Below are positions 1 to 55,526 of a DNA stretch of 64,000 nucleotides, one piece after another (within the stretch, counting starts at the first letter, position 1; each line of letters opens with the position of its first letter). A program made the position numbers and the translations under genes. The DNA lies in NCBI GenBank assembly GCA_001773215.1, contig MEWB01000001.1, positions 395,052 through 459,051 on the forward strand, written 5' to 3'. This stretch comes from a candidate division WWE3 bacterium RIFOXYC1_FULL_40_10. GTDB lineage: Bacteria > Patescibacteriota > WWE3 > UBA101185 > UBA10185. Under the pieces are notes generated by a model, which saw only the letters and a program-made list of their open reading frames with translations, was not told where the DNA came from and made no database searches.

Positions 1-890
1 CTAACTGCTCCTGCGGCCAAGTTTTGGCCTACACGGTCCCCATACGGGTAAATTATCACCATAGAGCTTTCCTCTTTGCTCATCTCACTTAATACCTGGA
101 GTTCTCTTAGTCTCATCGAACCTTTATTCTGCCTCAAGATTTCAGCTGCTTTAGTAGTCATTGTTGCAACTTCTACCTCTGCCTCGGCTTCAATCCTCTT
201 GGCCTCCGCACTACGGCGGGCGCGCGCAATTACAGCAAGTTCGTCTATCAAAGTCGGAGGTGTATCAACATCGGTAATTCTAACTGCTCTAACGTCAATC
301 CCATAAGTAGTTGCCCCTGAATCGATTTGAACTTTTAAATTGGCAGCTATTTCATCTCGCTCGCTAAGAATCTCTTTTAAATCCATACTCCCGATAGTAT
401 TTTTAAGCGCTTCGGTCGAAAGCCAAATTACCGACTGGCGATAATTTTGAACATCTATTACTGCTTTTTGCGGATCCTCTACTCTAAACTCAATCGCAGC
501 AGTAATCTTTGTGGGTACATTATCCTTTGTAAGTGTAGCCGTGGCCTCAACCTGATGGGTCTCTATTCTTGTATCCAAAATTGCTGCTACCGAATATACA
601 AATGGCGGTATGATAAATAACCCCGGTCCTCTAACACCAACGAATTTGCCTAATCTTAGCAAAACTAGCCTTTCCCACTCGGGTAGAATAAAAATCATCC
701 CCGCGATTACTCCTGCTAACCAAGCGTTGAACAACAAAGCCGGGACCATGAAAACCCAAGGGCTGGCAAATAGTGCGATTGATAGTACACCCAGAGTGAG
801 TGAACTCACAATTGTAAGGGACACGAATGTAAGTATCCACACTAAAGATCTCATAAAGCCTTGAACGGTGTTTGTGCTGTTATATAACAT
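1..890 (-). CDS. SPFH/band-7 (stomatin/prohibitin-like) membrane protein; C-terminus runs off window start
   Basis: Minus-strand frame open from ATG (complement of 888-890) to the window edge. Own translation: MLYNSTN..(two TM helices)..LPEWERLVLLRLGKFVGVRGPGLFIIPPF..TKDNVPTKITAAIEFRVEDP..ARARRSAEAKRIEAEAEV. This gives an N-terminal TM region, SPFH core motifs and an Ala/Glu-rich tail. Plus-strand ORFs 76-306 and 610-864 are shadow frames. Confidence 0.8.
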   Translation of the reverse strand, partial: MLYNSTNTVQGFMRSLVWILTFVSLTIVSSLTLGVLSIALFASPWVFMVPALLFNAWLAGVIAGMIFILPEWERLVLLRLGKFVGVRGPGLFIIPPFVYSVAAILDTRIETHQVEATATLTKDNVPTKITAAIEFRVEDPQKAVIDVQNYRQSVIWLSTEALKNTIGSMDLKEILSERDEIAANLKVQIDSGATTYGIDVRAVRITDVDTPPTLIDELAVIARARRSAEAKRIEAEAEVEVATMTTKAAEILRQNKGSMRLRELQVLSEMSKEESSMVIIYPYGDRVGQNLAAGAV

Positions 891-964
891 GTTATTCTAA
901 ATTTTCACCTCTTTCCGAATGTAAAATTCTTGCTTTTTGATATCAATAAAAGTATACATGACTC

Positions 965-1518
965 ATGGATATTCTGGCACAAGGGAGCAATATGGTTGTG
1001 TATAAATTGGGCGATAAGGTTCTTAAGATCAGTAAATATGCCTGCCATAAGGCTCTTCAACGCAGTATCTTGACAGATTATAGAAAAAGTAAGAAATTAA
1101 CGGGGATATATACTAAGGTTCCAACAACCTATCACGCGTTCTTCGACAGAGCAGATAAGATGAACATCGTTGAAAGCTACGAGGGAGAAAGTATCAAGGC
1201 TATTATAATCAGATCAGATCAGATCAGATCAGATCAGATATGCTTGTTAATAGGTGCCTTGATATCATAAAACTATTACCTGTCACTATCCCATTGGATA
1301 CAAATCCCGGTAGCTTTGTATTAAACCCCTGCAATGATATTGTGTTTGTGGATTTTACGCCGGTTAATCCCTGGAGATATAACGATACTCGCCAACAAAA
1401 AAATCACGAGGCATTATTCCCAAGTATCGTTAACGAGTATAGCGACAAGCATACAAAATACTTTACCCCCGAAGGAAGAATAGCCAGATTTCTCTATCAC
1501 CTGAAAAATTTAATATGA
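965..1518 (+). pseudogene. small protein-kinase-like fold protein, currently split into two overlapping ORFs (965-1270 frame 2; 1240-1518 frame 1) at a pentanucleotide repeat; candidate phase-variable gene
   Basis: N-terminal part has a Gly-rich/Lys strand (VYKLGDKVLKISKY) and a hinge-like ESYEG. C-terminal part has a catalytic-loop-like LDTNPGSFVLNPCNDIVFVDF (D..N, DF[G/T]-like). Frame 1 is open from 1174, so the two ORFs overlap across the repeat. Loss of one 5-nt unit would fuse them to about 185 aa. Confidence 0.5.
1208..1239 (+). repeat. (ATCAG)n pentanucleotide tandem repeat, about 6.4 units, inside coding sequence
   Basis: Direct reading: atcagatcagatcagatcagatcagatcagat. Each 15 nt encodes an IRSDQ repeat in the upstream ORF. 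Confidence 0.9.
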
Positions 1519-2144: not shown

Positions 2145-4607
2145 ATGAATGATTCAGCTGTTTACGACCACAGTAAAATAGAAGCAAATTGGAAAAATAA
2201 GTGGTTTGCCGATAACTTGTACGAGGCAGTGGATTTTTCACCCAAACCCAAGAAATTTATATTAGCTGAACTTCCCTATCCCTCGGGTAAATATTTACAT
2301 GTGGGTCATATGATGAGATACACCGTCCCGGAGATATATTCCCGATATTTGCGAATGAAAGGCTTTAATGTTTTGTTCCCCATGGGGTGGGACTCATTTG
2401 GTTTGCCAGCAGAAACATTTGCGTTAAAATCCAATTCAACTCCCCGCAAAGTCCTCGACCAGGCAATTCCCGAATATAAAAAATCTATGATGGATATGGG
2501 CTATGCTATCGACTGGACTCGCGAGATCGATACTTCTCAGCCTGATTTTTACAAATGGACACAATGGATGTTTTTGAAAATGTGGGAAGCAGGACTTGCT
2601 GAAATTAAAGAAATGCCTGTGTGGTGGTGCCAAGCCCTGGGAGTTTTGGCTGATGAGGAAGTGCTTACCAAGCCTGATGGAACAAGGGTGTCCGAACGAG
2701 ATAATCATCCCGTTGAACGAAAAATATTTAAGCAATGGGTTTTAAAAATTACGAAGTACGCAGATAAAATGCTCGATGGGCTAGACAAAACTCAATACAC
2801 TCCCTCTGTTAAACAGGCCCAAGTCAATTGGATAGGTAAGAAAGAAGGTATAAATATTACCTATAAAATTGTAGATGATAGCGGAAAGGATACCAAAAAA
2901 ACCGTCACCTGCTTTACTACTCGTCCCGATACTAACTTTGGAGCTACATTCGTTGTTATTGCACCCGAGCACCCTTTGGTTGAGCAAATTACTCCTAAAG
3001 GGCAACTAGGTAAGGTACAGAAATATGTAAAAGATGCTCTAAATAAGAGCGAGCTTCAAAGAACCTCCGAAAAAACAAAATCCGGTATATTCACCGGGAC
3101 ATACGCTTTAAATACACTTACGAAAACAAAGATGCCCATTTTTGTAGCTGACTATGTATTGGCCCAATATGGTACCGGAGCCGTTGTGGGAGTTCCCGGC
3201 CACGACAAACGGGACTTTGAGTTTGCTAAACATTACGGACTGCCAATTCTAAGAGTTGTAGTTGGAACCGACGGAGATACCACTGAAATCACAAAAGTAG
3301 AACAGGTTCAGGAGGAAAGTGGGAAAATGATCAACAGTGGATTTTTAGACGAGATGGATATAAATAAAGCAACCGACATAATGATAAACTACATGGAAGA
3401 AAAGGGTTATGGAGAGAAACACACAACATATAAACTGAGAGATCAAATCTGGTCAAGGCAAAGATACTGGGGCGAGCCTATTCCCCTTGTTTACACCAAA
3501 GATAATGAAATAGAGCCTGATTATAACCTTCCCCTCAAACTTCCCGAGTTAACACCCGAGGTGATGTCAGGGCGAAAAGACTTTCCGACTTTGGATCAAT
3601 TTCAAGAATTCATAAGTACCAGTGATTCAAAAGGAAGAGAAGCAAAACGGGAAACTGATACCATGCCAACTTGGGCGGGCTCTAATTGGTACTACATAAG
3701 ATATATAGATCCAAAAAATACCGAGGAATTCGCAAACTACGACAAACTTAAATATTGGCTTCCCGTGGATAAGTATTACGGGGACGCCGGACACACAACA
3801 GCCCATTTGCTATACACAAGGTTTTGGTACAAATTTTTATATGATTTGGGTTTGGTACCACATACCGAGCCTATAATGTATAGAATGAGCGGGGGCTTAC
3901 TGTTGGGAGAAGACAACCGTAAGATGAGCAAATCAAGACCTGAGTTTGTCGTCAATCCCGAAGATGCTGTACAAAACTACGGTGCTGACGCAGTTAGAAC
4001 ATATTTGGCATTTATCGGCCCCTATGATGAAACATATCCATGGTGTACCGACGGCTTAAAAGCCATAGCCAGATTCATCAAAAATGCCTTTTCTCTCAAA
4101 TTTAAGGTTAAAAACAATATTAAGGATACAGAAGTAGAAAAGGCTTATAACAAGATGGTTAAAACTGTAACAGAGATGTGTGAAGGCTTTAAGATGAACA
4201 CTGCAGTTAGCCAGCTGATGATTTTTGTAAATTTACTAAAGAAAAAAGACGAAATTGATATAGATATCTGGAAAGGCTTCATCCGGGTACTTGCACCGTT
4301 CGCTCCATTTGTCGCCGAGGAGCTTTGGCAGGAAATAAATGGATTTGAAACATGGAAAAAAGAAAACAGTGTTCACCTGGCAAGCTGGCCAGATTACGAT
4401 AAGACAAAAATAGCCGACGATACATTCCAAGTACCGGTTCAAATAAACGGTAAGGTTAGAGCTGTTATCGAAGTTACAAAGGACATCTCAGAAGACGAGG
4501 TAAAGGCAATTGCTTATAAAAACGAGAATGTTAAGAAATTCCTTAACTCCCAAATACCGGGTAAGGTTATCTACATCAAAGAAAAAATTTTGAATATTGT
4601 TCTGTGA
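2145..4607 (+). CDS. leuS: leucyl-tRNA synthetase
   Basis: 820 aa. HIGH-type motif PYPSGKYLHVGHMMRYT, KMSKS motif (KMSKSRPEF), class I editing-domain architecture. Confidence 0.95.
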   Translation: MNDSAVYDHSKIEANWKNKWFADNLYEAVDFSPKPKKFILAELPYPSGKYLHVGHMMRYTVPEIYSRYLRMKGFNVLFPMGWDSFGLPAETFALKSNSTPRKVLDQAIPEYKKSMMDMGYAIDWTREIDTSQPDFYKWTQWMFLKMWEAGLAEIKEMPVWWCQALGVLADEEVLTKPDGTRVSERDNHPVERKIFKQWVLKITKYADKMLDGLDKTQYTPSVKQAQVNWIGKKEGINITYKIVDDSGKDTKKTVTCFTTRPDTNFGATFVVIAPEHPLVEQITPKGQLGKVQKYVKDALNKSELQRTSEKTKSGIFTGTYALNTLTKTKMPIFVADYVLAQYGTGAVVGVPGHDKRDFEFAKHYGLPILRVVVGTDGDTTEITKVEQVQEESGKMINSGFLDEMDINKATDIMINYMEEKGYGEKHTTYKLRDQIWSRQRYWGEPIPLVYTKDNEIEPDYNLPLKLPELTPEVMSGRKDFPTLDQFQEFISTSDSKGREAKRETDTMPTWAGSNWYYIRYIDPKNTEEFANYDKLKYWLPVDKYYGDAGHTTAHLLYTRFWYKFLYDLGLVPHTEPIMYRMSGGLLLGEDNRKMSKSRPEFVVNPEDAVQNYGADAVRTYLAFIGPYDETYPWCTDGLKAIARFIKNAFSLKFKVKNNIKDTEVEKAYNKMVKTVTEMCEGFKMNTAVSQLMIFVNLLKKKDEIDIDIWKGFIRVLAPFAPFVAEELWQEINGFETWKKENSVHLASWPDYDKTKIADDTFQVPVQINGKVRAVIEVTKDISEDEVKAIAYKNENVKKFLNSQIPGKVIYIKEKILNIVL

Positions 4608-6700: not shown

Positions 6701-7459
6701 ATGTCGGCTATCAAAACCGCAGCACAAATACAAACGATGAAAGTTGCCGGAAAAATTCTGGGAGAAATTCTAGCCTCTTTAAAATCACATACCAAACCTG
6801 GCAAGCTGGTCTTAGAACTGGAAGACGAATTTATTAGCTTATGTGATAAATTCAAAGTTACTCCAACGTGTAAGGGCTATTCAGAATATGGTCTCAAACC
6901 GTTTCCTACAGGGCTGTGCGTTAGTATTAACAGCCAGGCCGTGCATTGCCCTCCCAAAAAAGACGTTATTATTACTGATACTGATATAGTGACAGTCGAC
7001 ACTGTTATAGGGTATAATGGCCTTCACGTTGATAGCTCTTTTTGCATAGCAATGCCCGGATCCACTACAACCAGAAAGAATATGGCAGTTACAGCCGAAA
7101 AGGCCTTTGATGAGGCTGTTTCCAGGGTTAGGGAGGGCATTAAAACAGGTCTACTTGGATCAAAAATCTATTCTACAGCTAAAATCGGGGGCTTTAATGT
7201 ATTAAGGGACTTTGCCGGCCACGGTATCGGTGAAGAAATGCACGAATGGCCGGATATTACATGCTTCGGAACTAAAAACGAAGGCGTTAAGTTAAAAGCG
7301 GGCATGACGATTTGTATTGAAACATTAATTTGCGAAGGAAACCCTAAAGTAGAAACAAAAGACGGTTGGGAGACCAATATGGCCGATGGCAAGGATTTTT
7401 GCCAGCACGAGCACACTGTACTCGTAACCAGGAACGGATACGAGATACTAACACAATAA
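6701..7459 (+). CDS. map: methionine aminopeptidase, type I
   Basis: 252 aa. Metal-ligand context DTDIVTVD, HGIGEEMHEWP and EHTVLVT match the MetAP pita-bread fold signatures. Confidence 0.9.
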   Translation: MSAIKTAAQIQTMKVAGKILGEILASLKSHTKPGKLVLELEDEFISLCDKFKVTPTCKGYSEYGLKPFPTGLCVSINSQAVHCPPKKDVIITDTDIVTVDTVIGYNGLHVDSSFCIAMPGSTTTRKNMAVTAEKAFDEAVSRVREGIKTGLLGSKIYSTAKIGGFNVLRDFAGHGIGEEMHEWPDITCFGTKNEGVKLKAGMTICIETLICEGNPKVETKDGWETNMADGKDFCQHEHTVLVTRNGYEILTQ

Positions 7460-13835: not shown

Positions 13836-15251
13836 ATGATTACCAAAACAGACTTTTTAGTTTATCTGGAAGCTCCAAGGCACTTTTGGGCTTTGAAAAA
13901 TAACAAGTATGATTTAACAATATCCGATTTTGACAAACACTTGATTACACAGGGCTATATCGTGGAAACAAAGGCTAAAGAATACGCTAAGCGTTATTTA
14001 TTACCTAGCTATGCAACAAATGATTCTGACTTGGTTTTTCAGAGGACATGCCTAGACGGGGACTTTGAGGCTAGAACAGACATTTTAGTTAGAAATGCAA
14101 CTACTAACAAATGGGATATTTACGAGGTAAAAAGCGTAACTAAACCTAAGCCAGAGCATTACTACGACACTACATTTCAAACTATAATCTTTGAAAAGCA
14201 CATGGATATTGGCAATGTTTTCATTCTGCATGTAAACAACGACTATGTGCGAGAAGGTGATTTTGACTTGGGATTGTTCTTAGTTGCGGAAGATGTGACC
14301 CAAAAAGTGAAAGAGTTAAAAGAAGAAACGCTTAATAAGATGAAGGATTGCCAATTTCTAGTAGGTACAGACAACTATAAATTAGCTACAGAATGTTGGA
14401 AACCTAAAGAATGTCACTGTAAAGGGCTATGTTTCCCAAGTCTACCTAATGACTCAATCTATAACCTAGCACGGGTTACTGAAAAGAAAATTTTAGACCT
14501 ACGGGATAACGATATTCTAAATATAACGGACATTCCCGATGACTTTGACTTAACCACAAACCAACGAATACAGGTAGAAGTAGCCAAAAGAAATACGCCA
14601 CTAATAAATCATAAAGCTATAAAGCAAGAATTGGAAACCCTAGAGTATCCGTTATATTTCCTTGACTACGAGACCTACGACCCCGCAATCCCGATGTATG
14701 ACTGGTATAAACCGTATCAACAGATGGTTTTCCAGTACTCACTACATGTTTTAGAAAGCCCTAATAACAAAGACCTTAAACATTACGAATATGTTGTAAA
14801 AACGAAAAGCGAGCCTTGTAGGGAGCTTCTGACGCATATGAAACAGTATATTGGAAATACAGGTAGCGTGATTGTTTGGTACAAGGCTTTTGAGTGTTCA
14901 CGAAACAGAGAAATGGGACAAATCTGTATGGATTTTGCTGAATTTTTAGAAAATGTAAATGGTAGAGTTTATGACCTTATGGATATATTTAAAAACAATC
15001 TCTATGTTGACCCCAAATTCAAAGGCAGTAACTCAATTAAAGATGTATTACCCGTTTTAGTTCCAGAGCTAAACTATAAAAACCTAAATATACAAAATGG
15101 CACAATGGCAATGACTAACTGGCATAAGATGGTTTATAAAATTACGAACCAGAAGGAAAAAGACGAACTGCTTAAAAACTTGCTAACTTATTGTGAACAG
15201 GACACATTAGCTATGGTTAGAATATGGGATTTTTTAAGGCAACTGGCTTGA
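13836..15251 (+). CDS. two-domain nuclease-like protein: N-terminal PD-(D/E)xK, C-terminal DEDD/RNase-H-like exonuclease-like (DUF2779-like)
   Basis: PD-(D/E)xK-like TDILVRNATTNKWDIYEVKSV (D..E-x-K). C-terminal YFLDYETYDPAIP resembles a DnaQ-type Exo I D-x-E motif. The domain naming is inference from motifs only. Confidence 0.5.
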   Translation: MITKTDFLVYLEAPRHFWALKNNKYDLTISDFDKHLITQGYIVETKAKEYAKRYLLPSYATNDSDLVFQRTCLDGDFEARTDILVRNATTNKWDIYEVKSVTKPKPEHYYDTTFQTIIFEKHMDIGNVFILHVNNDYVREGDFDLGLFLVAEDVTQKVKELKEETLNKMKDCQFLVGTDNYKLATECWKPKECHCKGLCFPSLPNDSIYNLARVTEKKILDLRDNDILNITDIPDDFDLTTNQRIQVEVAKRNTPLINHKAIKQELETLEYPLYFLDYETYDPAIPMYDWYKPYQQMVFQYSLHVLESPNNKDLKHYEYVVKTKSEPCRELLTHMKQYIGNTGSVIVWYKAFECSRNREMGQICMDFAEFLENVNGRVYDLMDIFKNNLYVDPKFKGSNSIKDVLPVLVPELNYKNLNIQNGTMAMTNWHKMVYKITNQKEKDELLKNLLTYCEQDTLAMVRIWDFLRQLA

Positions 15252-15362
15252 AAACTAATGATTTTTACCCGCATAGATTAACTCTGCACTATAAATAAAT
15301 TCCCTAACTGTATATACTTAATACAATGACTACCCCTAATCAGAAATTTAAGGTAAAAAAGT

Positions 15363-16184
15363 ATGATTACAAGTAATCTAACTAAAAAACAACTTGAAAA
15401 CTCCTTGTTTGAAGGCGATTGTCTAAAAGTCATGTCTAAATTTCCAGATAAAAGTATAGATATGATTTTGTGCGATTTGCCATATGGCACAACGCAAAAC
15501 AAGTGGGATAGTGTAATTCCATTAGCTGCTTTGTGGAAGGAGTACGAGAGGATTATAAAAGATAACGGGGTAATAGCATTGACCTCTCAAGGTGTATTTA
15601 CAGCGTCGTTAATCATGAGCAACACAGCACTATTTAAGTATAAATTAACATGGGTTAAATCTAAGGCTACAAATTTTTTGAACGCTAAGATACAGCCTTT
15701 GAGAAAACACGAAGATATTTGTATCTTTTATAGAAATCACAAGTACAAACCAACATACCACCCGCAGATGACATTTGGAGAACCGTACGATAAAGGACAC
15801 AGAAAAAACCAACAAACTAGTAGTTACGGTGAATTTAACTCAATAGAGGTAAAAAGCGATGGAGAAAGATACCCAACAGATGTCGTTTATTTTAAAACCG
15901 CTGAAAGCGAAGGTGAGGTTTTCCACCCAACACAAAAACCGATTGAACTTGGAAGATATTTAGTTAAAACATATACTAACAAGGGTGAACTGGTATTAGA
16001 CAATACTTTTGGAAGCGGTAGTTTTTTAATCGCTACTGCCTTAGAAGATAGAAAGTTTGTTGGAGTTGAAATAAATCAGGAGGTTTTATTGCACAAGGAA
16101 AAAAAAGTTGATTTAATGCACATAGCAGAAAGCCGCATTAGGAAATTTCTACCTAAAATAGACATACCTATATACAAAATATGA
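15363..16184 (+). CDS. beta-class N6-adenine/N4-cytosine DNA methyltransferase
   Basis: Motif IV DLPYG precedes motif I (FGSGS), which is the beta-class order; FHPTQKP is also present. Confidence 0.85.
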   Translation: MITSNLTKKQLENSLFEGDCLKVMSKFPDKSIDMILCDLPYGTTQNKWDSVIPLAALWKEYERIIKDNGVIALTSQGVFTASLIMSNTALFKYKLTWVKSKATNFLNAKIQPLRKHEDICIFYRNHKYKPTYHPQMTFGEPYDKGHRKNQQTSSYGEFNSIEVKSDGERYPTDVVYFKTAESEGEVFHPTQKPIELGRYLVKTYTNKGELVLDNTFGSGSFLIATALEDRKFVGVEINQEVLLHKEKKVDLMHIAESRIRKFLPKIDIPIYKI

Positions 16185-18931
16185 CCACAATAAATTACAA
16201 TGAACGAAGCTGGGCAATTGATATTATATCCGAAATTAACATTTGGCTATCCAGTAGAAATATAATAATAAAAAGAGCTGGTGGTGAGAACACACTAATG
16301 GAAGGCACTAAATCTTTGTTTCCTGATGTATTGCTATTTGGAGATCTGGACAAAGGTAAAATTCTACAAGGGTGGGAGTTGAAAATGCCAGATACTCCCC
16401 TAGAAGATGCGGATTTTATAGCAAATGCAAAGGCTAAAGCTAAATTACTTTCTCTCAATAGTTTTTTGTTGTGGAATGTATCAGAAGCTGTCTTATATAA
16501 AATTGAGGATAGCGGCAGTCTTACGCAAGTTAAATCTTGGAACAATTTAAGTCATTTAAAACTTAGAGGTGAGGTACTTCAGCATAAAGATGCAATAAAA
16601 CTTATGTTGGTTGAAATACTGAATGATATAAATAGCTTTATTCTTGGTGGAACTATTAAAACGGTATCTGTTGTTACTGCCTTGAGTAGTGAAACAGTTT
16701 CGTGGCTAATACATAATAACTTAAGCTCGTATGTTGAAGCTTTAAAAAATAATGCTGTAGCTAATCATGGTTTTTCAGACGAAATTACTCTATGGTGGCG
16801 ATACGCCAAAAACGACTACCCCGAAGAACAAGATAAATTTGTTGTTCTGGGAAGAAATAACCTACTTTTCTTAATTAACAAGTTCATATTTGCACATATT
16901 TTGAAATCCTACCAAGTAGAAGCAAATTCAATTGATAATATAAACTCTAGTACTGATGTTGAGACGGCACTTGCCACATTTGACCATATTTCTGAAAAAT
17001 GTGATTTTTGGAACATATTCCAACGACAAACAGGTGAGGAGCTAGTCACTCCTGAAGTTTGGCAAGATATAGTAAGTTTTAACGCCTTGTTAAAAGAGTT
17101 TAATTTCGCAAAAATTGAAAAGAACCTTCTTCATGATCTACTTGGTGCAACGATTTACAAGAATAAAAGAAAATTTGCTGGGCAATTTACAACGCCACAG
17201 GAATTGGCAAGGTTTATTGTACGGCTTACCATTAAAGACAAAAATCTACATGCGATTGACCCCTGTTGTGGTACTGGAACTATAGTGAAAGAAATCTATA
17301 AGTATAAAAAAACACAAATAACTGTAAAGGAAAGTCTGGCTACATTGTGGGCATCAGATAAGTTCTCCCTTCCTCTACAGATGGCAATGTTTAACCTAGC
17401 TGAACCAGAGGCGTTAGGTTTCGTATTAAAAGTTTTCAAGGAAGATGCAACTAAACTTGAAGTAGATAAAGAAATCACGCTTCATGAACCTTTTAAAGGT
17501 ACAGCAATAATTGAGAAGTTACCAAAGTTTGGTTACATTATTTCCAATCTGCCGTTTGTTCAACAGGAAGATATTGAAGTCCTAAACCCAAATGTTGTAG
17601 AAATCAACAGGTTCATTCAAGACAAGCTAGGGGAGGGGTTTCTACTTGACGGAAGGAGTGACTTATATGCTTATTTTCCTTTTCATTTCTGGAAATTATT
17701 AGATACAGACGGAAAAATGTCTATTATCGTTTCAAACTCATGGCTGGGTACAGCTTGGGGTAAGAAATTTTATACAGCATTATCCGCTTTTTTTGAAATA
17801 GAAAATATAATAACATCAGGTAATGGTCGTTGGTTTGATAATGCCAAAGTCGTTACAAATATAATCACTTTGAGAAAGAAAAATTTTCCGTCACTACCAA
17901 ATGCAAACGAGATAATTAAATTTACAACAACTAAAAAAGCACTAACAAGCTATAATCCTGAAGAAATTGAAGAAATATCAGCAATTGTTTCCACAGCGGA
18001 ATCATTCAATGAAAGCGACTTGTCGGTGTATGCGTATACACACGAAAAACTAAATAAAGTTCTGTCTCTAGGACTAAATTTAAACAGTTTTTTTGCAAAT
18101 AATGACTGGCTTTTAGAACTAAGTAGCAAACTAATTAAGGTTTCAGAATTATTTGATATAGGCAGAGGTGAAAGGCGAGGCTGGGATAAGCTATTCTACC
18201 CCGATACAACTAATGGAATTGAGCAGGTATATCTACAACCTGTTTTAAAGACACCTAGGTCGGTTCATACACTAGGTGCAAAGCCAGATGCGTTAGCATT
18301 TTGTTGTGATAAAACGAAGGAGGAGTTGGAGCTTCTTGGGCATACAGGTGCCCTGTCATGGATAAATAAGTTTGAACATCAGGAAAATGAGAGGGGTATT
18401 CCATTAACTACAGCATTAGCGAGAAGCGGTACAAATTGGTATACCATGTCACCGACTACTATGGCGGAAATGGTGACTAGTATTAACTTTGGGGATAGGC
18501 TTTTCTTTGCTAAATTTCAAAAGCCAACCTTTGTGAACCAAAGACTTGTAAGATTTAGCAAAAAATCTGGAGATATTGATGATGACTTATGTCATTCATT
18601 ATTAAATAGCATTGTTGGGCAGTTTTACATTGAAGCTATGGGAACTGGTAGAGGAGAGGGGGCTTTGGACTTGAGCAAAGACAAAATAAAAGCTGACCTA
18701 AGAATCATTAACCCAAAGTTATTTACTGGGGATAAAAGAGATAAAATAATGACTCTGTTTGGAAAATTGATGGAAAGAGAAGTTTTACCTTTAAAGCAAG
18801 AGCTTGAAATGGACGATAGAGTAGACTTTGACAATGCAGTACTTGAGGCTATCGGCTTTCCTTTATACAGGGAACGCATAAAAACTGCTCTACTCACACT
18901 TTATAATATAAGGGCTTCCGTTAACGGCTAA
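16181..18931 (+). CDS. MmeI-like Type IIG/IIL restriction-modification enzyme (nuclease + gamma-class N6A methyltransferase + target-recognition domain fusion)
   Basis: 916 aa. N-terminal D..E-L-K (PDVLLFGDLDKGKILQGWELK). Central motif I FTTPQELARFIV..IDPCCGTG and motif IV ISNLPF. Overlaps the upstream methyltransferase by ATGA. Confidence 0.7.
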   Translation: MTTINYNERSWAIDIISEINIWLSSRNIIIKRAGGENTLMEGTKSLFPDVLLFGDLDKGKILQGWELKMPDTPLEDADFIANAKAKAKLLSLNSFLLWNVSEAVLYKIEDSGSLTQVKSWNNLSHLKLRGEVLQHKDAIKLMLVEILNDINSFILGGTIKTVSVVTALSSETVSWLIHNNLSSYVEALKNNAVANHGFSDEITLWWRYAKNDYPEEQDKFVVLGRNNLLFLINKFIFAHILKSYQVEANSIDNINSSTDVETALATFDHISEKCDFWNIFQRQTGEELVTPEVWQDIVSFNALLKEFNFAKIEKNLLHDLLGATIYKNKRKFAGQFTTPQELARFIVRLTIKDKNLHAIDPCCGTGTIVKEIYKYKKTQITVKESLATLWASDKFSLPLQMAMFNLAEPEALGFVLKVFKEDATKLEVDKEITLHEPFKGTAIIEKLPKFGYIISNLPFVQQEDIEVLNPNVVEINRFIQDKLGEGFLLDGRSDLYAYFPFHFWKLLDTDGKMSIIVSNSWLGTAWGKKFYTALSAFFEIENIITSGNGRWFDNAKVVTNIITLRKKNFPSLPNANEIIKFTTTKKALTSYNPEEIEEISAIVSTAESFNESDLSVYAYTHEKLNKVLSLGLNLNSFFANNDWLLELSSKLIKVSELFDIGRGERRGWDKLFYPDTTNGIEQVYLQPVLKTPRSVHTLGAKPDALAFCCDKTKEELELLGHTGALSWINKFEHQENERGIPLTTALARSGTNWYTMSPTTMAEMVTSINFGDRLFFAKFQKPTFVNQRLVRFSKKSGDIDDDLCHSLLNSIVGQFYIEAMGTGRGEGALDLSKDKIKADLRIINPKLFTGDKRDKIMTLFGKLMEREVLPLKQELEMDDRVDFDNAVLEAIGFPLYRERIKTALLTLYNIRASVNG

Positions 18932-18978
18932 AACTACCAACTTACTAAAATTTATAACTAAGAAAATTGAAAGGTTGC

Positions 18979-19004
18979 AAAAATCAGCTTCTTCACTGAT
19001 TTTT
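18979..19004 (+). terminator. hairpin terminator candidate after the RM gene
   Basis: aaaaatcag-cttcttca-ctgattttt. Confidence 0.45.
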
Positions 19005-19231
19005 AAATCTTAAAAGTGTATTTGAAAATGTTTAACAAAAAGCCTGCCTTGAGCAAGTATCGTCAAAAACAATTGGAAACGAGATGTTTCAAAAAGAAAC
19101 GGGTTTTAATGAGCGTCATACATTAAATAAAAACTTTGGTTACCCTATTATATTTAACGCCCCTCTCTTAAATTATACTTGACTGTATAATTCTCCACAT
19201 GCTATAAAGTATACATAACGGTATAATTTAT

Positions 19232-19651
19232 ATGAATGACTTAATAATTAGCAATTATGAAGAACGCAACAAACAGCTATTAGAGGACTGTATATCTATT
19301 TGGGTTGAACACGACTTTCAATCGCGCTGGTTTCGTGTAAAAGGATACCATGAATTGGGCAAAAGACTTTTAGAAGAACCAAAGGAATATGGGGATAGGT
19401 TTGTGCCATTGGTGGCAGAATCTTTGGGTAAAAGTGAACGAACAATATACAGGACTATTGAATTTGCACGAGCATTTCCTGATTTAGATTTACTTCCCGA
19501 AGGTAAAAATATTAGCTGGTACAAGATAATTCAAAAATATCTCCCATTAGAAACAAGATGTATAGGAGACGCTATGCTAGTGTATATATGTCCCAACTGT
19601 AATTCCGAACACAAAAAATCAGATATAAAGTTCATAAGAAAGAATATATAG
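19232..19651 (+). CDS. hypothetical protein with C-terminal CxxC zinc-ribbon (island-borne)
   Basis: CPNCNSEHK; GKSERTIYRTIEFARAF is possibly HTH-like. A TATAAT lies 10 nt upstream. Confidence 0.45.
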   Translation: MNDLIISNYEERNKQLLEDCISIWVEHDFQSRWFRVKGYHELGKRLLEEPKEYGDRFVPLVAESLGKSERTIYRTIEFARAFPDLDLLPEGKNISWYKIIQKYLPLETRCIGDAMLVYICPNCNSEHKKSDIKFIRKNI

Positions 19652-19652
19652 A

Positions 19653-20456
19653 ATGTTTCGGTTACCAGAAGCAGAGGAAATAAATCTATTAGATGCTAAG
19701 GCTAGAATTAACTTTGATTCCATAATCAACACAAGAAAGTACACCGTTAAAGACTCTACAATGACTTACCGTCAAGCTAATTCTATGGCGAGTGATAATA
19801 TGCTTCCCGAAGACAAAGATAGGGATAATGGGTGGAGAAAGTTCAGTCTCAAGGAGTTAATTTACATTGAATTGGTCTTATCACTAAAGAAGTTGGGACT
19901 AAAACACAGTCAACTTAGAAATGTTTGGGACTCTTTTTTCAATCCGTATGATGACGCAAAAAAGGAAAAACGATTATGGAGAGAAATTAGTGATGATGTG
20001 ATTGCGTTAGTAATGGGTCACATAGACATGATTTTAACAATAACTGCAGGTGGGGAGGTTTCCTATATACACCCTGTTTTTTTTACTAGGGAATATCCAA
20101 CTGAAGAGCCATTTGTTTTTGTTAGTATGAGCGATACCGTTAATAAAGTAGCTAAAAGAATTGGTAAAGAAGGGTTTACACCAAAAGCAACATTAGATAG
20201 CATTTATCACATCTTAACAACCAAAGAAGAAAAGGCATTAGCCCTTATAAGAAACGGCGAGTTTAGAACAATAAAGTTAACAAAAAAGGATGGGGAAATA
20301 GAGTTAATCCATGCAGAGCAGATGAATAAATCCGATAATATTACAATTAAAGCAATTGAGGAAGTCATCTCAACAGGTAAATACCAAAAAATTACTATTA
20401 CTCAAAAAGATGGAAAATTAGTCAACCTTACACAAGAAGTTATGATGAAAGTCTAA
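19653..20456 (+). CDS. hypothetical protein (267 aa, island-borne)
   Basis: Follows the previous ORF with 1-nt spacing. No recognised motif. Confidence 0.45.
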   Translation: MFRLPEAEEINLLDAKARINFDSIINTRKYTVKDSTMTYRQANSMASDNMLPEDKDRDNGWRKFSLKELIYIELVLSLKKLGLKHSQLRNVWDSFFNPYDDAKKEKRLWREISDDVIALVMGHIDMILTITAGGEVSYIHPVFFTREYPTEEPFVFVSMSDTVNKVAKRIGKEGFTPKATLDSIYHILTTKEEKALALIRNGEFRTIKLTKKDGEIELIHAEQMNKSDNITIKAIEEVISTGKYQKITITQKDGKLVNLTQEVMMKV

Positions 20457-20549
20457 CCACTGAGCTGATACACAGCAGGTGTTAGCATGTAATTAAAATT
20501 TATAAGCAAGTTATGAGAAACACTCAAGCTGGCTGGGACAACCAGTACT

Positions 20550-20714
20550 ATGAGTGCAGAAAAAGAAAAGTTAGCTAAAATTGCTCAATCTATAGAAAGG
20601 AAGACTAGTATTAAAGATAAAGAAAAGATATTAGGAATAGCACAGGCTGTAGATGACTTCGCTGGTCTAATTCTACAAAGCTATTTAGCAGGAAAGGCAT
20701 TAAAGAAAAAATGA
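20550..20714 (+). CDS. small ORF (54 aa) translationally coupled to the recombinase gene; candidate recombination accessory/directionality factor
   Basis: Own translation MSAEKEKLAKIAQSIERKTSIKDKEKILGIAQAVDDFAGLILQSYLAGKALKKK. Its stop TGA overlaps the recombinase ATG (ATGA). Confidence 0.25.
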   Translation: MSAEKEKLAKIAQSIERKTSIKDKEKILGIAQAVDDFAGLILQSYLAGKALKKK

Positions 20715-22213
20715 AAGCAATAATTTATTGTAGGGTATCTACACAGGAACAAGTTAATGAGGGCAACAGTCTTTTAACACAAGAAAGGCTTTGTAGGCAG
20801 TATGGAAAAAATAATGGCTACGAGATTGACAAGGTTTTCGTTGAGGAAGGTGAAAGTGCTAAAACCATATACAGAACATCCCTCAAGAACATGATGAAAT
20901 ATTGTACTTTAACGGAAGGTAAAATTGATGCTGTGTTGATTTATAGAATTGATAGGCTTTCAAGAGAAACTGCAGACTATATAGCCTTAAAGGTTTTTTT
21001 TAATAAATTAGGGATTAAAGTGATATCTACCAGCGAACCAATTGAAGATACACCTACAGGTAGGTTTTTAGAAACTGTTCTCGCAAGTAGTGCTCAAATG
21101 GATAATGAGATAAGAGGAGAACGAAGTAAAAACGGTATGATAGACCGTCTAAAACAAGGAAGATGGATGTTTTATGCACCTTTAGGTTATAGGACAGAGG
21201 GAGCAAAAGGTGCCTCAAATATAGAACCTGTAGAACCCATAGCAGGTTATATAAACAGGGTTTTTATGGCACTATCCTCTGGGTATATAACGGTAGAAGA
21301 GGTGCGAAGGGACTCCGCAAAATGGGGACTTGTAACAAACAGAGGTAAAGCACTTAGCATTTCAATGTTTCATAAAATGATTAGAAACCCGATTTATAAG
21401 GGGTACTTAGATGTCCCTAGCATGGGGATTTATCAAAAAGGCAGTTTTAAGGCTATTGTAGATGAAAAAGTATTTGACCAAGTTCAGTATATTTTAGAAA
21501 GCAAAAAGAAGAAAATGCCTATATATAGAAAATTAAACCCTGACTTTCCTTTAAGGGGTGCATTGAAATGTAGCAAATGTGGAAAATTACTAACAGCGAG
21601 TTGGGCAAAGCAAAGAACCATAGGTCACTACAGGTGTTCAGTATGTACCAATGTGAACCTAAACAAAAAGGTTTTGGAAAATACATTTAGTGAATACCTT
21701 AAGTCAATAGTTTGGAACCAAATAACAGTTGAAGTTGTAAAAGAAGCATTGTTATTAAATTGGCAATCGCACAAAAAAGAATACGAAAAAGAACTAGCTA
21801 AAATTGCGAAGCAACAAATTGAAATAAGAGAGTTAATGGATAAAGTTGTTGATAAAAACATGAGGGGTGTTTACAGTGACTCGCTAGCAAAAACTAAACT
21901 AAATGATTATGAAAGGAACCTCGCCGAATTGCGTTTAGAGACCCAGAAATATGCTTCTCCAGATGTTATGGAGGCAGATTTACTTAACTACAGCGTTGAC
22001 TTCATGCGTAATATAACTGGTATGTGGGATAAATTGGATATAGAACCAAAGCATAGGTTGCATAAAATGTTATTTCCTGATGGTATCGTTTATTTGAATG
22101 GGATATTTACAACCCCTGTTAAATCCTGTCTTATAGAGCTAAACGATCTAGTATGTGTTGAAAATTCTACTATGGTGACCCCACGGAGAATCGAACTCCG
22201 GTTGCCGGGATGA
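20711..22213 (+). CDS. large serine recombinase (resolvase-domain integrase)
   Basis: N-terminal catalytic context IIYCRVSTQEQ and resolvase-domain motifs (LIYRIDRLSR, SAQMDNEIRGERSKNG). Downstream recombinase domain and zinc ribbon CSKCGKLL..YRCSVC. The last 13 codons are encoded within the tRNA-Glu sequence. Confidence 0.9.
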   Translation: MKAIIYCRVSTQEQVNEGNSLLTQERLCRQYGKNNGYEIDKVFVEEGESAKTIYRTSLKNMMKYCTLTEGKIDAVLIYRIDRLSRETADYIALKVFFNKLGIKVISTSEPIEDTPTGRFLETVLASSAQMDNEIRGERSKNGMIDRLKQGRWMFYAPLGYRTEGAKGASNIEPVEPIAGYINRVFMALSSGYITVEEVRRDSAKWGLVTNRGKALSISMFHKMIRNPIYKGYLDVPSMGIYQKGSFKAIVDEKVFDQVQYILESKKKKMPIYRKLNPDFPLRGALKCSKCGKLLTASWAKQRTIGHYRCSVCTNVNLNKKVLENTFSEYLKSIVWNQITVEVVKEALLLNWQSHKKEYEKELAKIAKQQIEIRELMDKVVDKNMRGVYSDSLAKTKLNDYERNLAELRLETQKYASPDVMEADLLNYSVDFMRNITGMWDKLDIEPKHRLHKMLFPDGIVYLNGIFTTPVKSCLIELNDLVCVENSTMVTPRRIELRLPG

Positions 22214-22247
22214 AAACCCGGCGTCCTAACCGTTAGACGATGGGGCC
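22173..22247 (-). tRNA. tRNA-Glu (anticodon TTC)
   Basis: Minus-strand GGCCCCATCGTCTAACGGTTAGGACGCCGGGTTTTCATCCCGGCAACCGGAGTTCGATTCTCCGTGGGGTCACCA. Acceptor 7 bp with one G-U pair, anticodon loop TTTTCAT, TTCGATT T-loop, CCA encoded. Confidence 0.9.
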
Positions 22248-53759: not shown

Positions 53760-55526
53760 TCATTTCTTTAGTCTTAACTTGAACTTATCCGCAAATTCTC
53801 CAAAACTCAGCGTGTTTACAATATCCTTGGCCTCTATTCCCGCTCTTCGAGCAATATTTACACCATATTTCATGTATTCCATTTGGCTTTTCTCGTGAGC
53901 GTCAGTGTTAATCACTAATGGTATTGCCCTTTTAACACATTCCTTAGCAAGATCATCGGGTAAATCAAGCCTGTTGGGTTGGGCATTTATTTCCATCAAT
54001 TTTCCCTCATATGCACATGCCGAAAAAACTTTCAACCAATCCGGATCAACCGGATCCCTTTCGTTTAGCAATCTCCCCGAAGGATGGCCTATATAGTTAA
54101 TGTAGGGATTTTCCAGTGCTTTAATTATTCGGTCGGTTATCTCTTCCCTTGATTGATTAAAAGCTGTATGAATAGATCCAAGAGCAAAGTCCAGTTCCTT
54201 TAGAATAGAATCCGGTAATGCCAGTGTGGCATCCGCCAGAATATTAACTTCGTACCCGAATAATATCTTGATTTCCGGGTATTTTTTACTAAGAATCGCG
54301 ATTTGCTCTCGCGTCTCGGTAATTATTTTTTCGACTTCCTCCAAACCTCTTGTTTGAACACTAGGAGCGTGATCAGTAACTCCATAATATTCATAGCCTA
54401 TCTTTATAGCCTGAATAATCATATCTTCCAGGCTATTTAAGCCATCCGACGCAATAGTATGCGATTGCAGATCTCCTTTTATATCACTTACTTTTATCAA
54501 ATTAGGAATTTTCCTTTGTCTGGCCAAATCTACTTCGTTGGAGCCATGACGCATTTCTGGGGGAATGTACTCTAGATTTAAGAAACCGTAAAACTCTTCT
54601 TCGGTGGCAAATTCCTTAATATCTTCCATACCTTTGCGCTTTATGCCATATTCCGATAAGGAAAAACCTTTATCTAAGGCGTATTGTCTTAATAGAATGT
54701 TATGTTGCTTGGAACCTGTATTATATTGCAGCATCGCTCCGTAGGATTGCGGTGTTGACAAGCGTAAGTCTACTTGAGCATCATTTGTGAGTACAACCAT
54801 CACTTTTTTTTCACCACGGGTTAGTACCTCGGCTATCTCGGGAAACTCCAAAAAGTGTTTGGCAACTTCATCAAAATTAGAAGTAGCGACAACAATATCT
54901 ATATCTCCAACTGTCGGGTTTTTCCGGCGGTAAGACCCTAGGGCATCGATCTTCTCTACAAACTCGCACTCTTTCATATACATAATTATTCTGTTCACAA
55001 CTTGCTCAGCATGGACGTACAACATTCGAGGTTTTTCGTTTTTTGTTAATTTAGATTGATTAATTGCTTCTAAGATTTGCGCCTCGGATTTTTCACCAAA
55101 GCCCTCGAGTGTTTGAATCTTATGATTTTCGGCTACTTCTTTAAGTTTTTCGATGGCACTTTCTCTACTATCAAGTTTAAAAGCATGGGCCAGTTTAAAT
55201 GCTTTTTTGGCACCTATACTTCGTAACCCAATCAGCGCAAACATTCCATCCGGCAAGCCCTTTTTTAACGCTTCAAACTTCTTTACCTCTCCAGTTTTAA
55301 ACAGTTCATCTAAGTGTTCGGATATAGTTGTTCCCACACCGGGAATTTCCCGAAGTTTTTTGTTTTCCCAGATATCGAATATTGAAACAGTGAGATTGTC
55401 TAAAATAGAAATGGCGTTTTGGTATGCTCTAATTTCAAAAAAGTTATTTCCCCTTATTTCCATCGCTGCCAGGGCTTCTTCCAGGATTGTGATTACTTCG
55501 TTGTTAGGAAGTCTTCTTTTAGTCAC
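53760..55526 (-). CDS. DNA polymerase X family protein with C-terminal PHP phosphoesterase domain
   Basis: N-terminal HhH/Pol-beta-like region (GVGTTISEH, GDIDIVV). C-terminal PHP His/Asp motifs (GVTDHAPS, GSIHTAF, TDAHE). Confidence 0.85.
   Translation of the reverse strand: MTKRRLPNNEVITILEEALAAMEIRGNNFFEIRAYQNAISILDNLTVSIFDIWENKKLREIPGVGTTISEHLDELFKTGEVKKFEALKKGLPDGMFALIGLRSIGAKKAFKLAHAFKLDSRESAIEKLKEVAENHKIQTLEGFGEKSEAQILEAINQSKLTKNEKPRMLYVHAEQVVNRIIMYMKECEFVEKIDALGSYRRKNPTVGDIDIVVATSNFDEVAKHFLEFPEIAEVLTRGEKKVMVVLTNDAQVDLRLSTPQSYGAMLQYNTGSKQHNILLRQYALDKGFSLSEYGIKRKGMEDIKEFATEEEFYGFLNLEYIPPEMRHGSNEVDLARQRKIPNLIKVSDIKGDLQSHTIASDGLNSLEDMIIQAIKIGYEYYGVTDHAPSVQTRGLEEVEKIITETREQIAILSKKYPEIKILFGYEVNILADATLALPDSILKELDFALGSIHTAFNQSREEITDRIIKALENPYINYIGHPSGRLLNERDPVDPDWLKVFSACAYEGKLMEINAQPNRLDLPDDLAKECVKRAIPLVINTDAHEKSQMEYMKYGVNIARRAGIEAKDIVNTLSFGEFADKFKLRLKK

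What the first reader, a model, noticed from the sequence alone, without database searches (positions are those of the whole stretch)
1208..1239. (ATCAG)6 pentanucleotide repeat splits a kinase-like gene: candidate slipped-strand phase switch
A perfect run of about 6.4 ATCAG units sits in the coding region of a small protein-kinase-like gene. Upstream the run encodes IRSDQIRSDQ. The downstream catalytic-loop half (LDTNPGSF..VDF) is in a different frame, and the two frames overlap across the repeat. Deleting one unit (or adding two) restores a single ~185-aa ORF. Non-triplet short-unit repeats in coding sequence are classic contingency loci. Such loci are rarely documented in reduced-genome environmental bacteria.
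Basis: seen in the sequence. Interest (0 to 1): 0.55.

Follow-up and report, generated by a model that had tools for sequence, protein, structure and literature searches.

The report
Pentanucleotide repeat frameshifts a mini-kinase gene
A perfect (ATCAG)6 microsatellite splits a small, conserved kinase-like gene in a tiny-genome groundwater bacterium (candidate division WWE3); the repeat varies in length in nature, but every version seen so far leaves the gene switched off.

Summary
(ATCAG)6+AT lies at 1208-1239 and is the only non-homopolymer microsatellite in the 64 kb window. It separates a 101-aa ORF (965-1270) from a 92-aa ORF (1240-1518) in the -1 frame. Tracts of 2, 5 or 8 units give one ORF of 177, 182 or 187 aa.

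The two halves are one gene. Thirty-seven single-ORF homologues of 190-263 aa span both halves, and two of them sit in the same gene neighbourhood and have no repeat. The family profile matches protein kinases. An AlphaFold model (pLDDT 89) matches kinase structures only.

The organism is a candidate division WWE3 bacterium from groundwater, with a genome of about 0.9 Mb. About 29 public contigs that are otherwise almost identical carry the locus. About 28 have 6 units and one has 7, and that extra unit is its only difference in 21.7 kb. A further contig breaks at the exact base expected if an allele of 7 or more units is present.

So the tract is a real slippage hot spot. No in-frame allele (5 or 8 units) is on record, both known alleles are OFF, and the catalytic-loop Asn (37 of 38 family members) is Ser here. 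A slipped-strand switch is mechanistically supported. An adaptive contingency locus is not shown, and incipient gene loss is at least as likely.

The parts
891..964 (.). Divergent intergenic region between the Band_7/SPFH gene (minus strand, start codon at 888-890) and the kinase-like gene. It presumably holds both promoters (inferred).
   Evidence: Gene tables show Band_7 with 313 aa. The consensus promoter scan finds no more sites than in shuffled sequence, so no promoter is demonstrated.
965..1207 (+). N-terminal half of the kinase-like gene (codons 1-81). It carries the G-loop-like QGSNMVVY, the beta3 Lys K21 (1025-1027) and the hinge motif E70..G74.S76.
   Evidence: ORF list. Codon-usage score 0.22, against 0.25 +/- 0.06 for genes of the window. 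Aligns from M1 with single-ORF homologues.
1208..1239 (+). (ATCAG)6 + AT pentanucleotide microsatellite. It encodes IRSDQ in every frame and is the site of the frameshift and of the length polymorphism.
   Evidence: TRF. 6 units in about 28 contigs and 7 units in GCA_035290405.1. A Logan contig break implies 7 or more units in SRR2090167.
1240..1270 (+). Out-of-frame tail (ICLLIGALIS) and TAA stop (1268-1270) of the truncated 101-aa product. It overlaps the start of the C-terminal half.
1240..1518 (+). C-terminal half of the kinase-like gene (residues 91-182 of the 5-unit protein), in the -1 frame relative to the N-half. It carries the catalytic-loop D110 (1297-1299), the DFG-like D128 (1351-1353), and FP and RY..R..RF motifs.
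   Evidence: ORF list. Codon-usage score 0.17 in its own frame and negative in the others. Aligned with homologues in a single stretch together with the N-half.
1312..1314 (+). AGC codon for Ser115, at the catalytic-loop position where 37 of 38 family members have Asn (DTNPGN).
   Evidence: Column count in alignment A2.

Best explanation
A lineage-specific (ATCAG)n microsatellite sits in the variable alphaD-alphaE linker of a conserved, uncharacterised protein-kinase-like gene of about 200 aa, in a groundwater WWE3 (candidate phyla radiation) bacterium. Slipped-strand mispairing adds or removes 5-bp units. Only n = 2, 5 or 8 keeps the two lobes in one frame, and n = 5 gives the linker length typical of the family.

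The population allele is n = 6, with n = 7 as a variant. Both stop translation after the N-lobe, so the gene is switched off in every sample seen.

Shown: the split gene, the kinase fold, the tract polymorphism and the absence of ON alleles. Inferred: the tract is still slipping and the knock-out is reversible in principle. On present evidence it is more likely a recent SSR-driven loss of a dispensable gene (incipient pseudogene) than a switch kept by selection.
For: - One gene: 37 homologues match both halves in a single stretch. The flanks of the repeat align in frame on both sides.
- Relatives in the same neighbourhood: two intact homologues lie among MetAP, SIMPL, LeuRS, L33, TP_methylase, UvrD and PMT_2 genes and have no repeat.
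- Kinase fold: profile against PDB sequences gives E 4e-6 with an alignment from G-loop to DFG. The AF2 model has pLDDT 89 and pTM 0.85. Foldseek gives 489 hits at E<=1e-3, and all 50 hits listed are protein kinases.
- Hot spot: GCA_035290405.1 differs from the window over 21.7 kb only by one extra unit, while other assemblies show 0-1 SNP per 15-20 kb. The start of the Logan contig from SRR2090167 equals the k=31 unitig break simulated for alleles of 7 or more units, and not for 6 alone or 5+6.
- Tract length: 6 units passes the usual cut-off of 5 or more pentanucleotide units for predicted phase variation (PMC6321876).
- Recent or reversible: both halves keep gene-like codon usage. The protein departs from the consensus at only 2 of 25 conserved columns, which is typical for the family. 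Five units give a 29-residue linker, against 26-39 (commonly 29-31) in homologues.
- Leaning to loss: no ON protein is on record with either start. Both alleles are OFF. N115S is unique (37 of 38 have Asn). It is the only SSR in 64 kb.
Against: - Assemblies report only the majority allele per sample, so minor ON subpopulations would be invisible.
- A perfect, uninterrupted tract in a tolerant loop, with an otherwise intact downstream half, is also what a maintained contingency locus looks like.
- Apart from N115S there is no second lesion (no stop, no further indel), so 'pseudogene' is not demonstrated either.
- The 7-unit call rests on one assembly plus one inferred graph break.
- Only about 7% of the genome was examined for other tracts.
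Confidence: 0.5

Rival explanations
1. It is a true contingency locus. Selection maintains the tract so that the population switches the kinase-like protein ON (5 or 8 units) and OFF (6 or 7 units) stochastically and reversibly. The sampled aquifer conditions simply favour OFF.
For: - The perfect non-triplet tract is above the usual prediction cut-off.
- Its length is polymorphic in an otherwise near-clonal population.
- It lies in a non-conserved linker of variable length, and 5 units give a linker length typical of the family.
- The downstream half is fully open, with normal codon usage and conserved motifs.
- Growing the tract unit by unit must have passed through OFF states, so the gene tolerates switching.
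- There is precedent for a kinase-type gene (choline kinase) under SSR control: H. influenzae licA with (CAAT)n (PMC2212159).
Against: - There is no ON allele among about 29 contigs or in the exact-sequence look-ups.
- The second allele (7 units) is also OFF.
- The catalytic Asn is lost.
- No other SSR lies in 64 kb, so there is no sign of a 'phasome'.
- Six units is at the short, slow end for known switches.
- The protein has no signal peptide or obvious surface role, and its function is unknown.
Confidence: 0.35
2. The out-of-frame alleles are still expressed. This could happen through ribosomal frameshifting or transcriptional slippage on the repeat. It could also happen as two separate lobes, with the C-lobe re-initiated at ATG 1240, which directly follows the tract. 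In the 7-unit allele the N-ORF stop lies within the 11-nt overlap ATGCTTGTTAA.
For: - An ATG sits exactly at the 3' edge of the tract, and the two ORFs overlap by 31 nt (6 units) or 11 nt (7 units).
- Both lobes are predicted as compact units.
Against: - The overlap has no X_XXY_YYZ slippery heptamer, not even a relaxed one.
- There is no Shine-Dalgarno-like sequence before ATG 1240; the upstream bases are the repeat itself.
- Homologues are all single chains.
- Met91 is not conserved in the family.
Confidence: 0.05
3. It is an assembly or sequencing artefact. The real gene is intact, and the 6-unit count (or the 6/7 difference) is an error.
For: Short-k de Bruijn assemblers can miscount periodic tracts. 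The 7-unit allele comes from a single third-party reassembly.
Against: - The 6-unit tract is identical in contigs from at least four pipelines and many samples.
- A 32-37 nt tract lies well inside one Illumina read.
- The Logan contig break independently points to 7 or more units in another data set.
Confidence: 0.03

Closest known systems
Haemophilus influenzae licA, a choline kinase with intragenic (CAAT)n (PMC2212159)
   Same: An SSR with a non-triplet unit lies inside the coding sequence of a kinase gene. Slippage puts the gene in or out of frame, with one ON frame and two OFF frames.
   Different: licA has a tetranucleotide tract near the 5' end with many more units, and ON and OFF variants are both observed and selected in the host. 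Its function is known (phosphorylcholine on LPS). Here the tract is a mid-gene pentanucleotide of 6-7 units, only OFF alleles are seen, the organism is free-living or episymbiotic in groundwater, and the substrate is unknown. No sequence relationship to licA was tested.
Pentanucleotide coding repeats of classic phase-variable genes: Neisseria opa (CTCTT)n (own knowledge) and the Mannheimia haemolytica type III mod CACAG repeat (Ryan & Lo 1999, cited in PMC6321876)
   Same: A 5-bp unit inside an ORF, so each gain or loss of a unit shifts the frame. The repeat itself contains no stop codon in any frame.
   Different: Those tracts are usually longer, lie near the 5' end, and affect surface adhesins or R-M methyltransferases of host-adapted pathogens. 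Here the target is a cytoplasmic-looking mini-kinase in a WWE3 bacterium.
Minimal atypical kinases of the protein-kinase-like superfamily (Bud32/KEOPS kinase, RIO, ABC1/UbiB)
   Same: The protein is about 200 aa with an N-lobe plus a short C-lobe. It has the beta3 Lys, the catalytic-loop D..PGN-type motif and a (D)F(G)-like Asp. A few family members give weak hits to Bud32 models (best E 2.8e-5) and to ABC1 (best E 2e-4). Rio2 is among the fold matches.
   Different: No curated model reaches its cut-off. The family has its own motifs (GSNC.V, IPLDTNPGNF, FVDF.PP.PW, RY..R..RF.YY). The window copy has Ser for the catalytic-loop Asn.
Frameshift-inactivated genes at repeats in reduced genomes (own knowledge: homopolymer frameshifts in endosymbionts, some rescued by transcriptional slippage)
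   Same: A small genome under ongoing gene loss, with a repeat-borne frameshift as the only lesion in an otherwise intact gene.
   Different: Those cases are poly-A/T runs. Here the repeat is a pentanucleotide, for which rescue by slippage is not known and no slippery site exists.

Membership tests
SSR-mediated translational phase-variable (contingency) locus | Perfect simple-sequence tract inside the ORF, unit not a multiple of 3, at or above the length used to predict phase variation (5 or more units for pentanucleotides) | tested here: met
   (ATCAG)6.4 with 100% matches. Cut-off taken from PMC6321876.
SSR-mediated translational phase-variable (contingency) locus | One repeat number restores a full-length ORF that corresponds to a real protein | tested here: met
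   n = 5 or 8 gives 182 or 187 aa. Single-ORF homologues span both halves, and the model is a confident kinase fold.
SSR-mediated translational phase-variable (contingency) locus | Tract length differs among otherwise near-identical genomes | tested here: met
   6 versus 7 units is the sole difference in 21.7 kb. The k=31 contig break in SRR2090167 fits 7 or more units.
SSR-mediated translational phase-variable (contingency) locus | Both ON and OFF alleles occur in the population | tested here: not met
   Exact look-ups of the in-frame products with 2, 5, 8 or 11 units from start M1, and with 2, 5 or 8 units from start V12, found none in the collection of about 15 billion proteins. Only the 6-unit products (101 and 90 aa) and the 7-unit product (96 aa) exist. 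Minor alleles within samples could not be examined.
SSR-mediated translational phase-variable (contingency) locus | High-frequency, reversible switching with a phenotypic consequence | not testable with these tools
   Needs read pile-ups, cultures or reporter constructs.
Protein-kinase-like (PKL) fold superfamily | Bilobal kinase fold and profile similarity to known kinases | tested here: met
   Profile of A1 against PDB sequences: STK4 and others, E 4.4e-6, aligned from G-loop to DFG. AF2 pLDDT 89.1. Foldseek gives 489 hits at E<=1e-3, and all 50 listed are kinases.
Protein-kinase-like (PKL) fold superfamily | Full catalytic set: beta3 Lys, catalytic-loop Asp and Asn, metal-binding Asp | tested here: not met
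   K21, D110 and D128 are present and invariant in the family. The Asn is replaced by S115 in the window copy only (37 of 38 have Asn).
Curated kinase families (Pfam Pkinase, APH, ABC1; NCBIfam Bud32) | Score at or above the curated threshold of the model | tested here: not met
   The window protein has no Pfam hit and only a 0.08 chance-level NCBIfam hit. Among 23 members the best are ABC1 at 2e-4 (5 members) and Bud32 at 2.8e-5 (1-2 members).
Decayed pseudogene | Several independent lesions (extra stops or indels, loss of many conserved residues) | tested here: not met
   There is a single frameshift at the tract, both halves are open with gene-like codon usage, and only 2 of 25 conserved columns deviate, as in normal members. 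The one notable lesion is N115S.
Anti-phage defence system component | Match to a PADLOC model | tested here: not met
   0 of 23 family members match.

The most novel reading that the evidence does not exclude
An ultra-small groundwater candidate-phyla-radiation (WWE3) bacterium runs a genuine SSR contingency switch on a previously undescribed Bud32-sized kinase. That would extend slipped-strand bet-hedging, known almost only from host-adapted pathogens and mycoplasmas, to uncultured environmental symbionts. My two literature searches combining phase-variation terms with 'Candidate Phyla Radiation' or 'Patescibacteria' listed no paper containing either taxon term.
Probability: 0.3. Interest if true: 0.65.

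Novelty: new member of a known kind. Interest (0 to 1): 0.42.

Why it matters
If the tract works as a switch, it would be a rare documented case of microsatellite phase variation in a candidate-phyla-radiation bacterium. It could be tested directly with the deep public metagenome time series from this aquifer.

Even if it is only gene decay, it catches gene loss in a 0.9-Mb genome at the first step: a single, still-mutating repeat lesion in an otherwise intact gene.

It also brings to light a rare, unannotated family of minimal kinase-like proteins of about 200 aa. The family has 37 representatives at 50% identity among 1.84 billion proteins. In the two relatives examined the gene lies in the same LeuRS/MetAP/SIMPL neighbourhood.

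Tried and rejected
- The word-indexed homologue search found nothing for the fused protein and only 2 hits for the profile. The exhaustive HMMER search was needed.
- Single-sequence AF2 gave pLDDT 37 and was unusable. The alignment-based model was used instead.
- The search for related loci with the family alignment in genome contigs found no confirmed locus. Its pattern required the Asn that the window copy lacks.
- The metagenome-contig scan with a variable gap for 2-8 units returned one contig, with 6 units.
Other tracts in this genome therefore remain unknown.
- Programmed -1 frameshifting was rejected because there is no slippery heptamer.
- A defence-system role was rejected.
- An assembly artefact was rejected because the tract is identical across pipelines.
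- The GTG start at 998 used by many gene callers (90-aa products) was rejected in favour of ATG 965. Homologues align from M1 through the G-loop.

Full report
**Observation**

Tandem Repeats Finder reports ATCAG x 6.4 at 1208-1239, with 100% matches and score 64. A separate scan for mono- to hexanucleotide tracts finds no other non-homopolymer SSR in the 64 kb; the longest homopolymer is T9.

The tract separates an ATG ORF at 965-1270 (101 aa, ending ...IIIRSDQIRSDQICLLIGALIS*) from an ATG ORF at 1240-1518 (92 aa, MLVNRC...LDTNPGSF...VDF...). The second ORF is in the -1 frame, and the two overlap by 31 nt. Rebuilding the locus with n units gives one continuous ORF only for n = 2, 5, 8 or 11 (177, 182, 187 or 192 aa).

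**Is it one gene, and is it coding?**

A codon-usage log-odds score was trained on 27 long ORFs of the window. It gives 0.22 for the N-half and 0.17 for the C-half, each in its own frame. Genes score 0.25 +/- 0.06, and the wrong frames score negative.

Pfam, NCBIfam and PDB sequence searches with the fused protein were empty, and the word-indexed homologue search found nothing. The exhaustive HMMER search of 1.84 billion representatives found 37 proteins of 190-263 aa with 28-45% identity to the query over the matched stretch. For the closer ones a single matched stretch runs across both halves, for example P0006 on query 21-182 and P0012 on query 2-179.

In the alignments the residues just before the tract (SIKAIII) and just after it (MLVNRCLDII..KLLP) align in frame with the homologues. 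The frame change therefore lies in the tract itself. Homologues align from M1 through a G-loop-like GSNC.V motif. This supports ATG 965 as the start, not the GTG at 998 that many gene callers chose.

**What the protein is**

A profile of the family matches eukaryotic-type protein kinases in the PDB (STK4/MST1 and others, E 4.4e-6). The alignment covers the G-loop, the beta3 Lys, the hinge E.Y.G.S, the catalytic loop D..pgN and the DF(G) motif.

With the 23-sequence alignment, AlphaFold2 models the 5-unit protein at pLDDT 89.1 and pTM 0.85. Foldseek against the PDB returns 489 hits at E<=1e-3, and all 50 hits listed are protein kinases.

A few members hit ABC1 weakly (5 of 23, best 2e-4) or Bud32 models (best 2.8e-5). 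None reaches a curated threshold, and none matches a defence model. So it is a minimal, uncharacterised protein-kinase-like family with its own motifs: GSNC.V, K21, E70..G74.S76, IPLDTNPGNF, FVDF.PP.PW, FP and RY..R..RF.YY.

The repeat-encoded residues 82-90 fall at the junction of two helices (H77-83 and H86-102 in the model). This segment is unconserved and varies in length. S76 to P104 spans 26-39 residues in homologues, commonly 29-31. Five units give 29, eight give 34 and two give 24.

**Organism and relatives**

The exact ORF products are annotated in NCBI as hypothetical proteins of candidate division WWE3 bacteria (RIFOXYC1_FULL_40_10 and others). They lie on contigs of up to about 897-904 kb; WWE3 is a candidate phylum.

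Two intact homologues on longer contigs (L033, L034) lie among the same genes that surround the window copy: MetAP M24, SIMPL, LeuRS, L33, TP_methylase, UvrD helicase and PMT_2. They are therefore likely orthologues in related lineages. Neither they nor P0006's gene contain any SSR of three or more units. The tract is specific to this lineage.

**Population data**

Look-ups by the neighbouring L33 protein and by the 101-aa ORF returned contigs from NCBI, JGI, ENA and Logan. Those compared are 99.9-100% identical to the window apart from runs of N. All of them carry 6 units, with two exceptions.

- GCA_035290405.1 carries 7 units.
- A Logan contig (L008, SRR2090167) ends inside the tract.

Protein look-ups give about 28 contigs with 6-unit products (101 aa, or 90 aa from the alternative start) and one contig with the 7-unit product (96 aa).

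Over window 1-21711, GCA_035290405.1 differs from the window only by the extra ATCAG. Other assemblies show 0-1 SNP per 15-20 kb. If that one difference fell at random, it would hit the 32-nt tract with probability about 0.0015.

A k=31 de Bruijn simulation shows that the first bases of L008, CAG(ATCAG)5AT..., are exactly where a unitig must start if an allele of 7 or more units is present, alone or mixed with 6. This is not so for 6 units alone or for a 5+6 mixture. Logan assemblies are built on 31-mers (PMC12424806). There are therefore two independent indications of alleles with 7 or more units.

In-frame products were looked up by exact sequence, with 2, 5, 8 or 11 units from start M1 and with 2, 5 or 8 units from start V12. 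None is in the collection of about 15 billion proteins. A variable-gap DNA scan of metagenome contigs found one more contig, also with 6 units.

**Interpretation**

The tract is a genuine slippage hot spot inside a real gene, and it exceeds the conventional cut-off of 5 or more pentanucleotide units for predicted phase variation (PMC6321876). Mechanistically it is an ON/OFF site.

What is missing is any sign of the ON state. The dominant allele (6 units) and the variant (7 units) are both out of frame.

The window copy also has Ser at the catalytic-loop position where 37 of 38 family members have Asn. It otherwise departs from the consensus at only 2 of 25 conserved columns, which is normal for the family.

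The lesion is therefore recent or reversible, and the gene may already be catalytically compromised. I rate a recent SSR-driven knock-out or incipient loss of a dispensable gene at about 0.5, and a selectively maintained contingency switch at about 0.35.

Expression of the OFF alleles by recoding or as split lobes is unlikely (about 0.05). There is no slippery heptamer and no Shine-Dalgarno-like sequence before ATG 1240. One detail is worth noting: in the 7-unit allele the N-ORF stop lies within an 11-nt overlap with that ATG. An artefact is very unlikely (about 0.03).

**Comparison with known systems**

The closest functional analogue is H. influenzae licA, a choline kinase switched by intragenic (CAAT)n (PMC2212159). 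The classic pentanucleotide coding repeats are also close: Neisseria opa CTCTT (own knowledge) and the M. haemolytica mod CACAG repeat (cited in PMC6321876).

This case differs in several ways. The tract is short and mid-gene, the host is an uncultured reduced-genome groundwater bacterium, the target is an unannotated mini-kinase, and no ON allele has been observed.

Two full-text searches combining phase-variation terms with 'Candidate Phyla Radiation' or 'Patescibacteria' listed no paper containing either taxon term. This is only absence of evidence within that library.

**Verdict**

It is a new member of a known kind (an SSR frameshift site), of moderate interest. Read-level allele counts from the existing metagenomes could settle the question.

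Noticed in passing
window 13836-22247: A low-GC stretch (0.34-0.355 against about 0.40-0.42) with strong positive GC and AT skew. It carries DUF2779, an N4/N6 methyltransferase, a 916-aa Eco57I-like fused R-M enzyme, three small ORFs and a 500-aa large serine recombinase whose end overlaps tRNA-Glu (22173-22247, minus strand). It looks like an integrated restriction-modification island at a tRNA gene.
   Followed up: no
L035-L114 (genome-contig hits): (ATCAG) tracts of 5 or more units occur in more than 119 stretches of species-representative genomes from very diverse phyla (Rhizobium, Synechococcus, Planctomycetota, Streptomyces, one archaeon, one Gracilibacteria MAG). Some have at least 10-15 units (L044, L056, L083, L107, L112). 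Every unit contains GATC. Whether these tracts lie in genes was not examined.
   Followed up: no
window 2207, 3073-3080, 7408: These are the only other differences seen between the window and near-identical assemblies: T>A at 2207 (L005, L016), a small indel and substitution cluster at 3073-3080 in LeuRS (L007), and C>T at 7408 (L026). The population is almost clonal across samples.
   Followed up: partly
L011 4342-4973 (just upstream of the window start, beside the TGT gene): Two tandem ORFs of exactly 101 aa each, with no Pfam hit, lie next to tRNA-guanine transglycosylase. They may be a small paralogous pair. In some assemblies only one of them, or neither, is called.
   Followed up: no
window 1-890 (minus strand) and L001/L011: The window starts inside a 313-aa Band_7/SPFH gene that is divergent from the kinase-like gene. 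In GCA_001773055.1 this gene is not called, because the window matches that contig in two separate pieces (window 1-217 and 294 onward) with about 76 window bases missing between them. This is an assembly discontinuity, not a biological difference.
   Followed up: partly
window 53760-55526: A PolX-type DNA polymerase (HHH_8, DNA_pol_B thumb and PHP domains) lies next to an Fe/Mn superoxide dismutase. This is a repair-related gene pair in a genome of about 0.9 Mb. No mutS or mutL was seen in the window, but only about 7% of the genome is covered.
   Followed up: no
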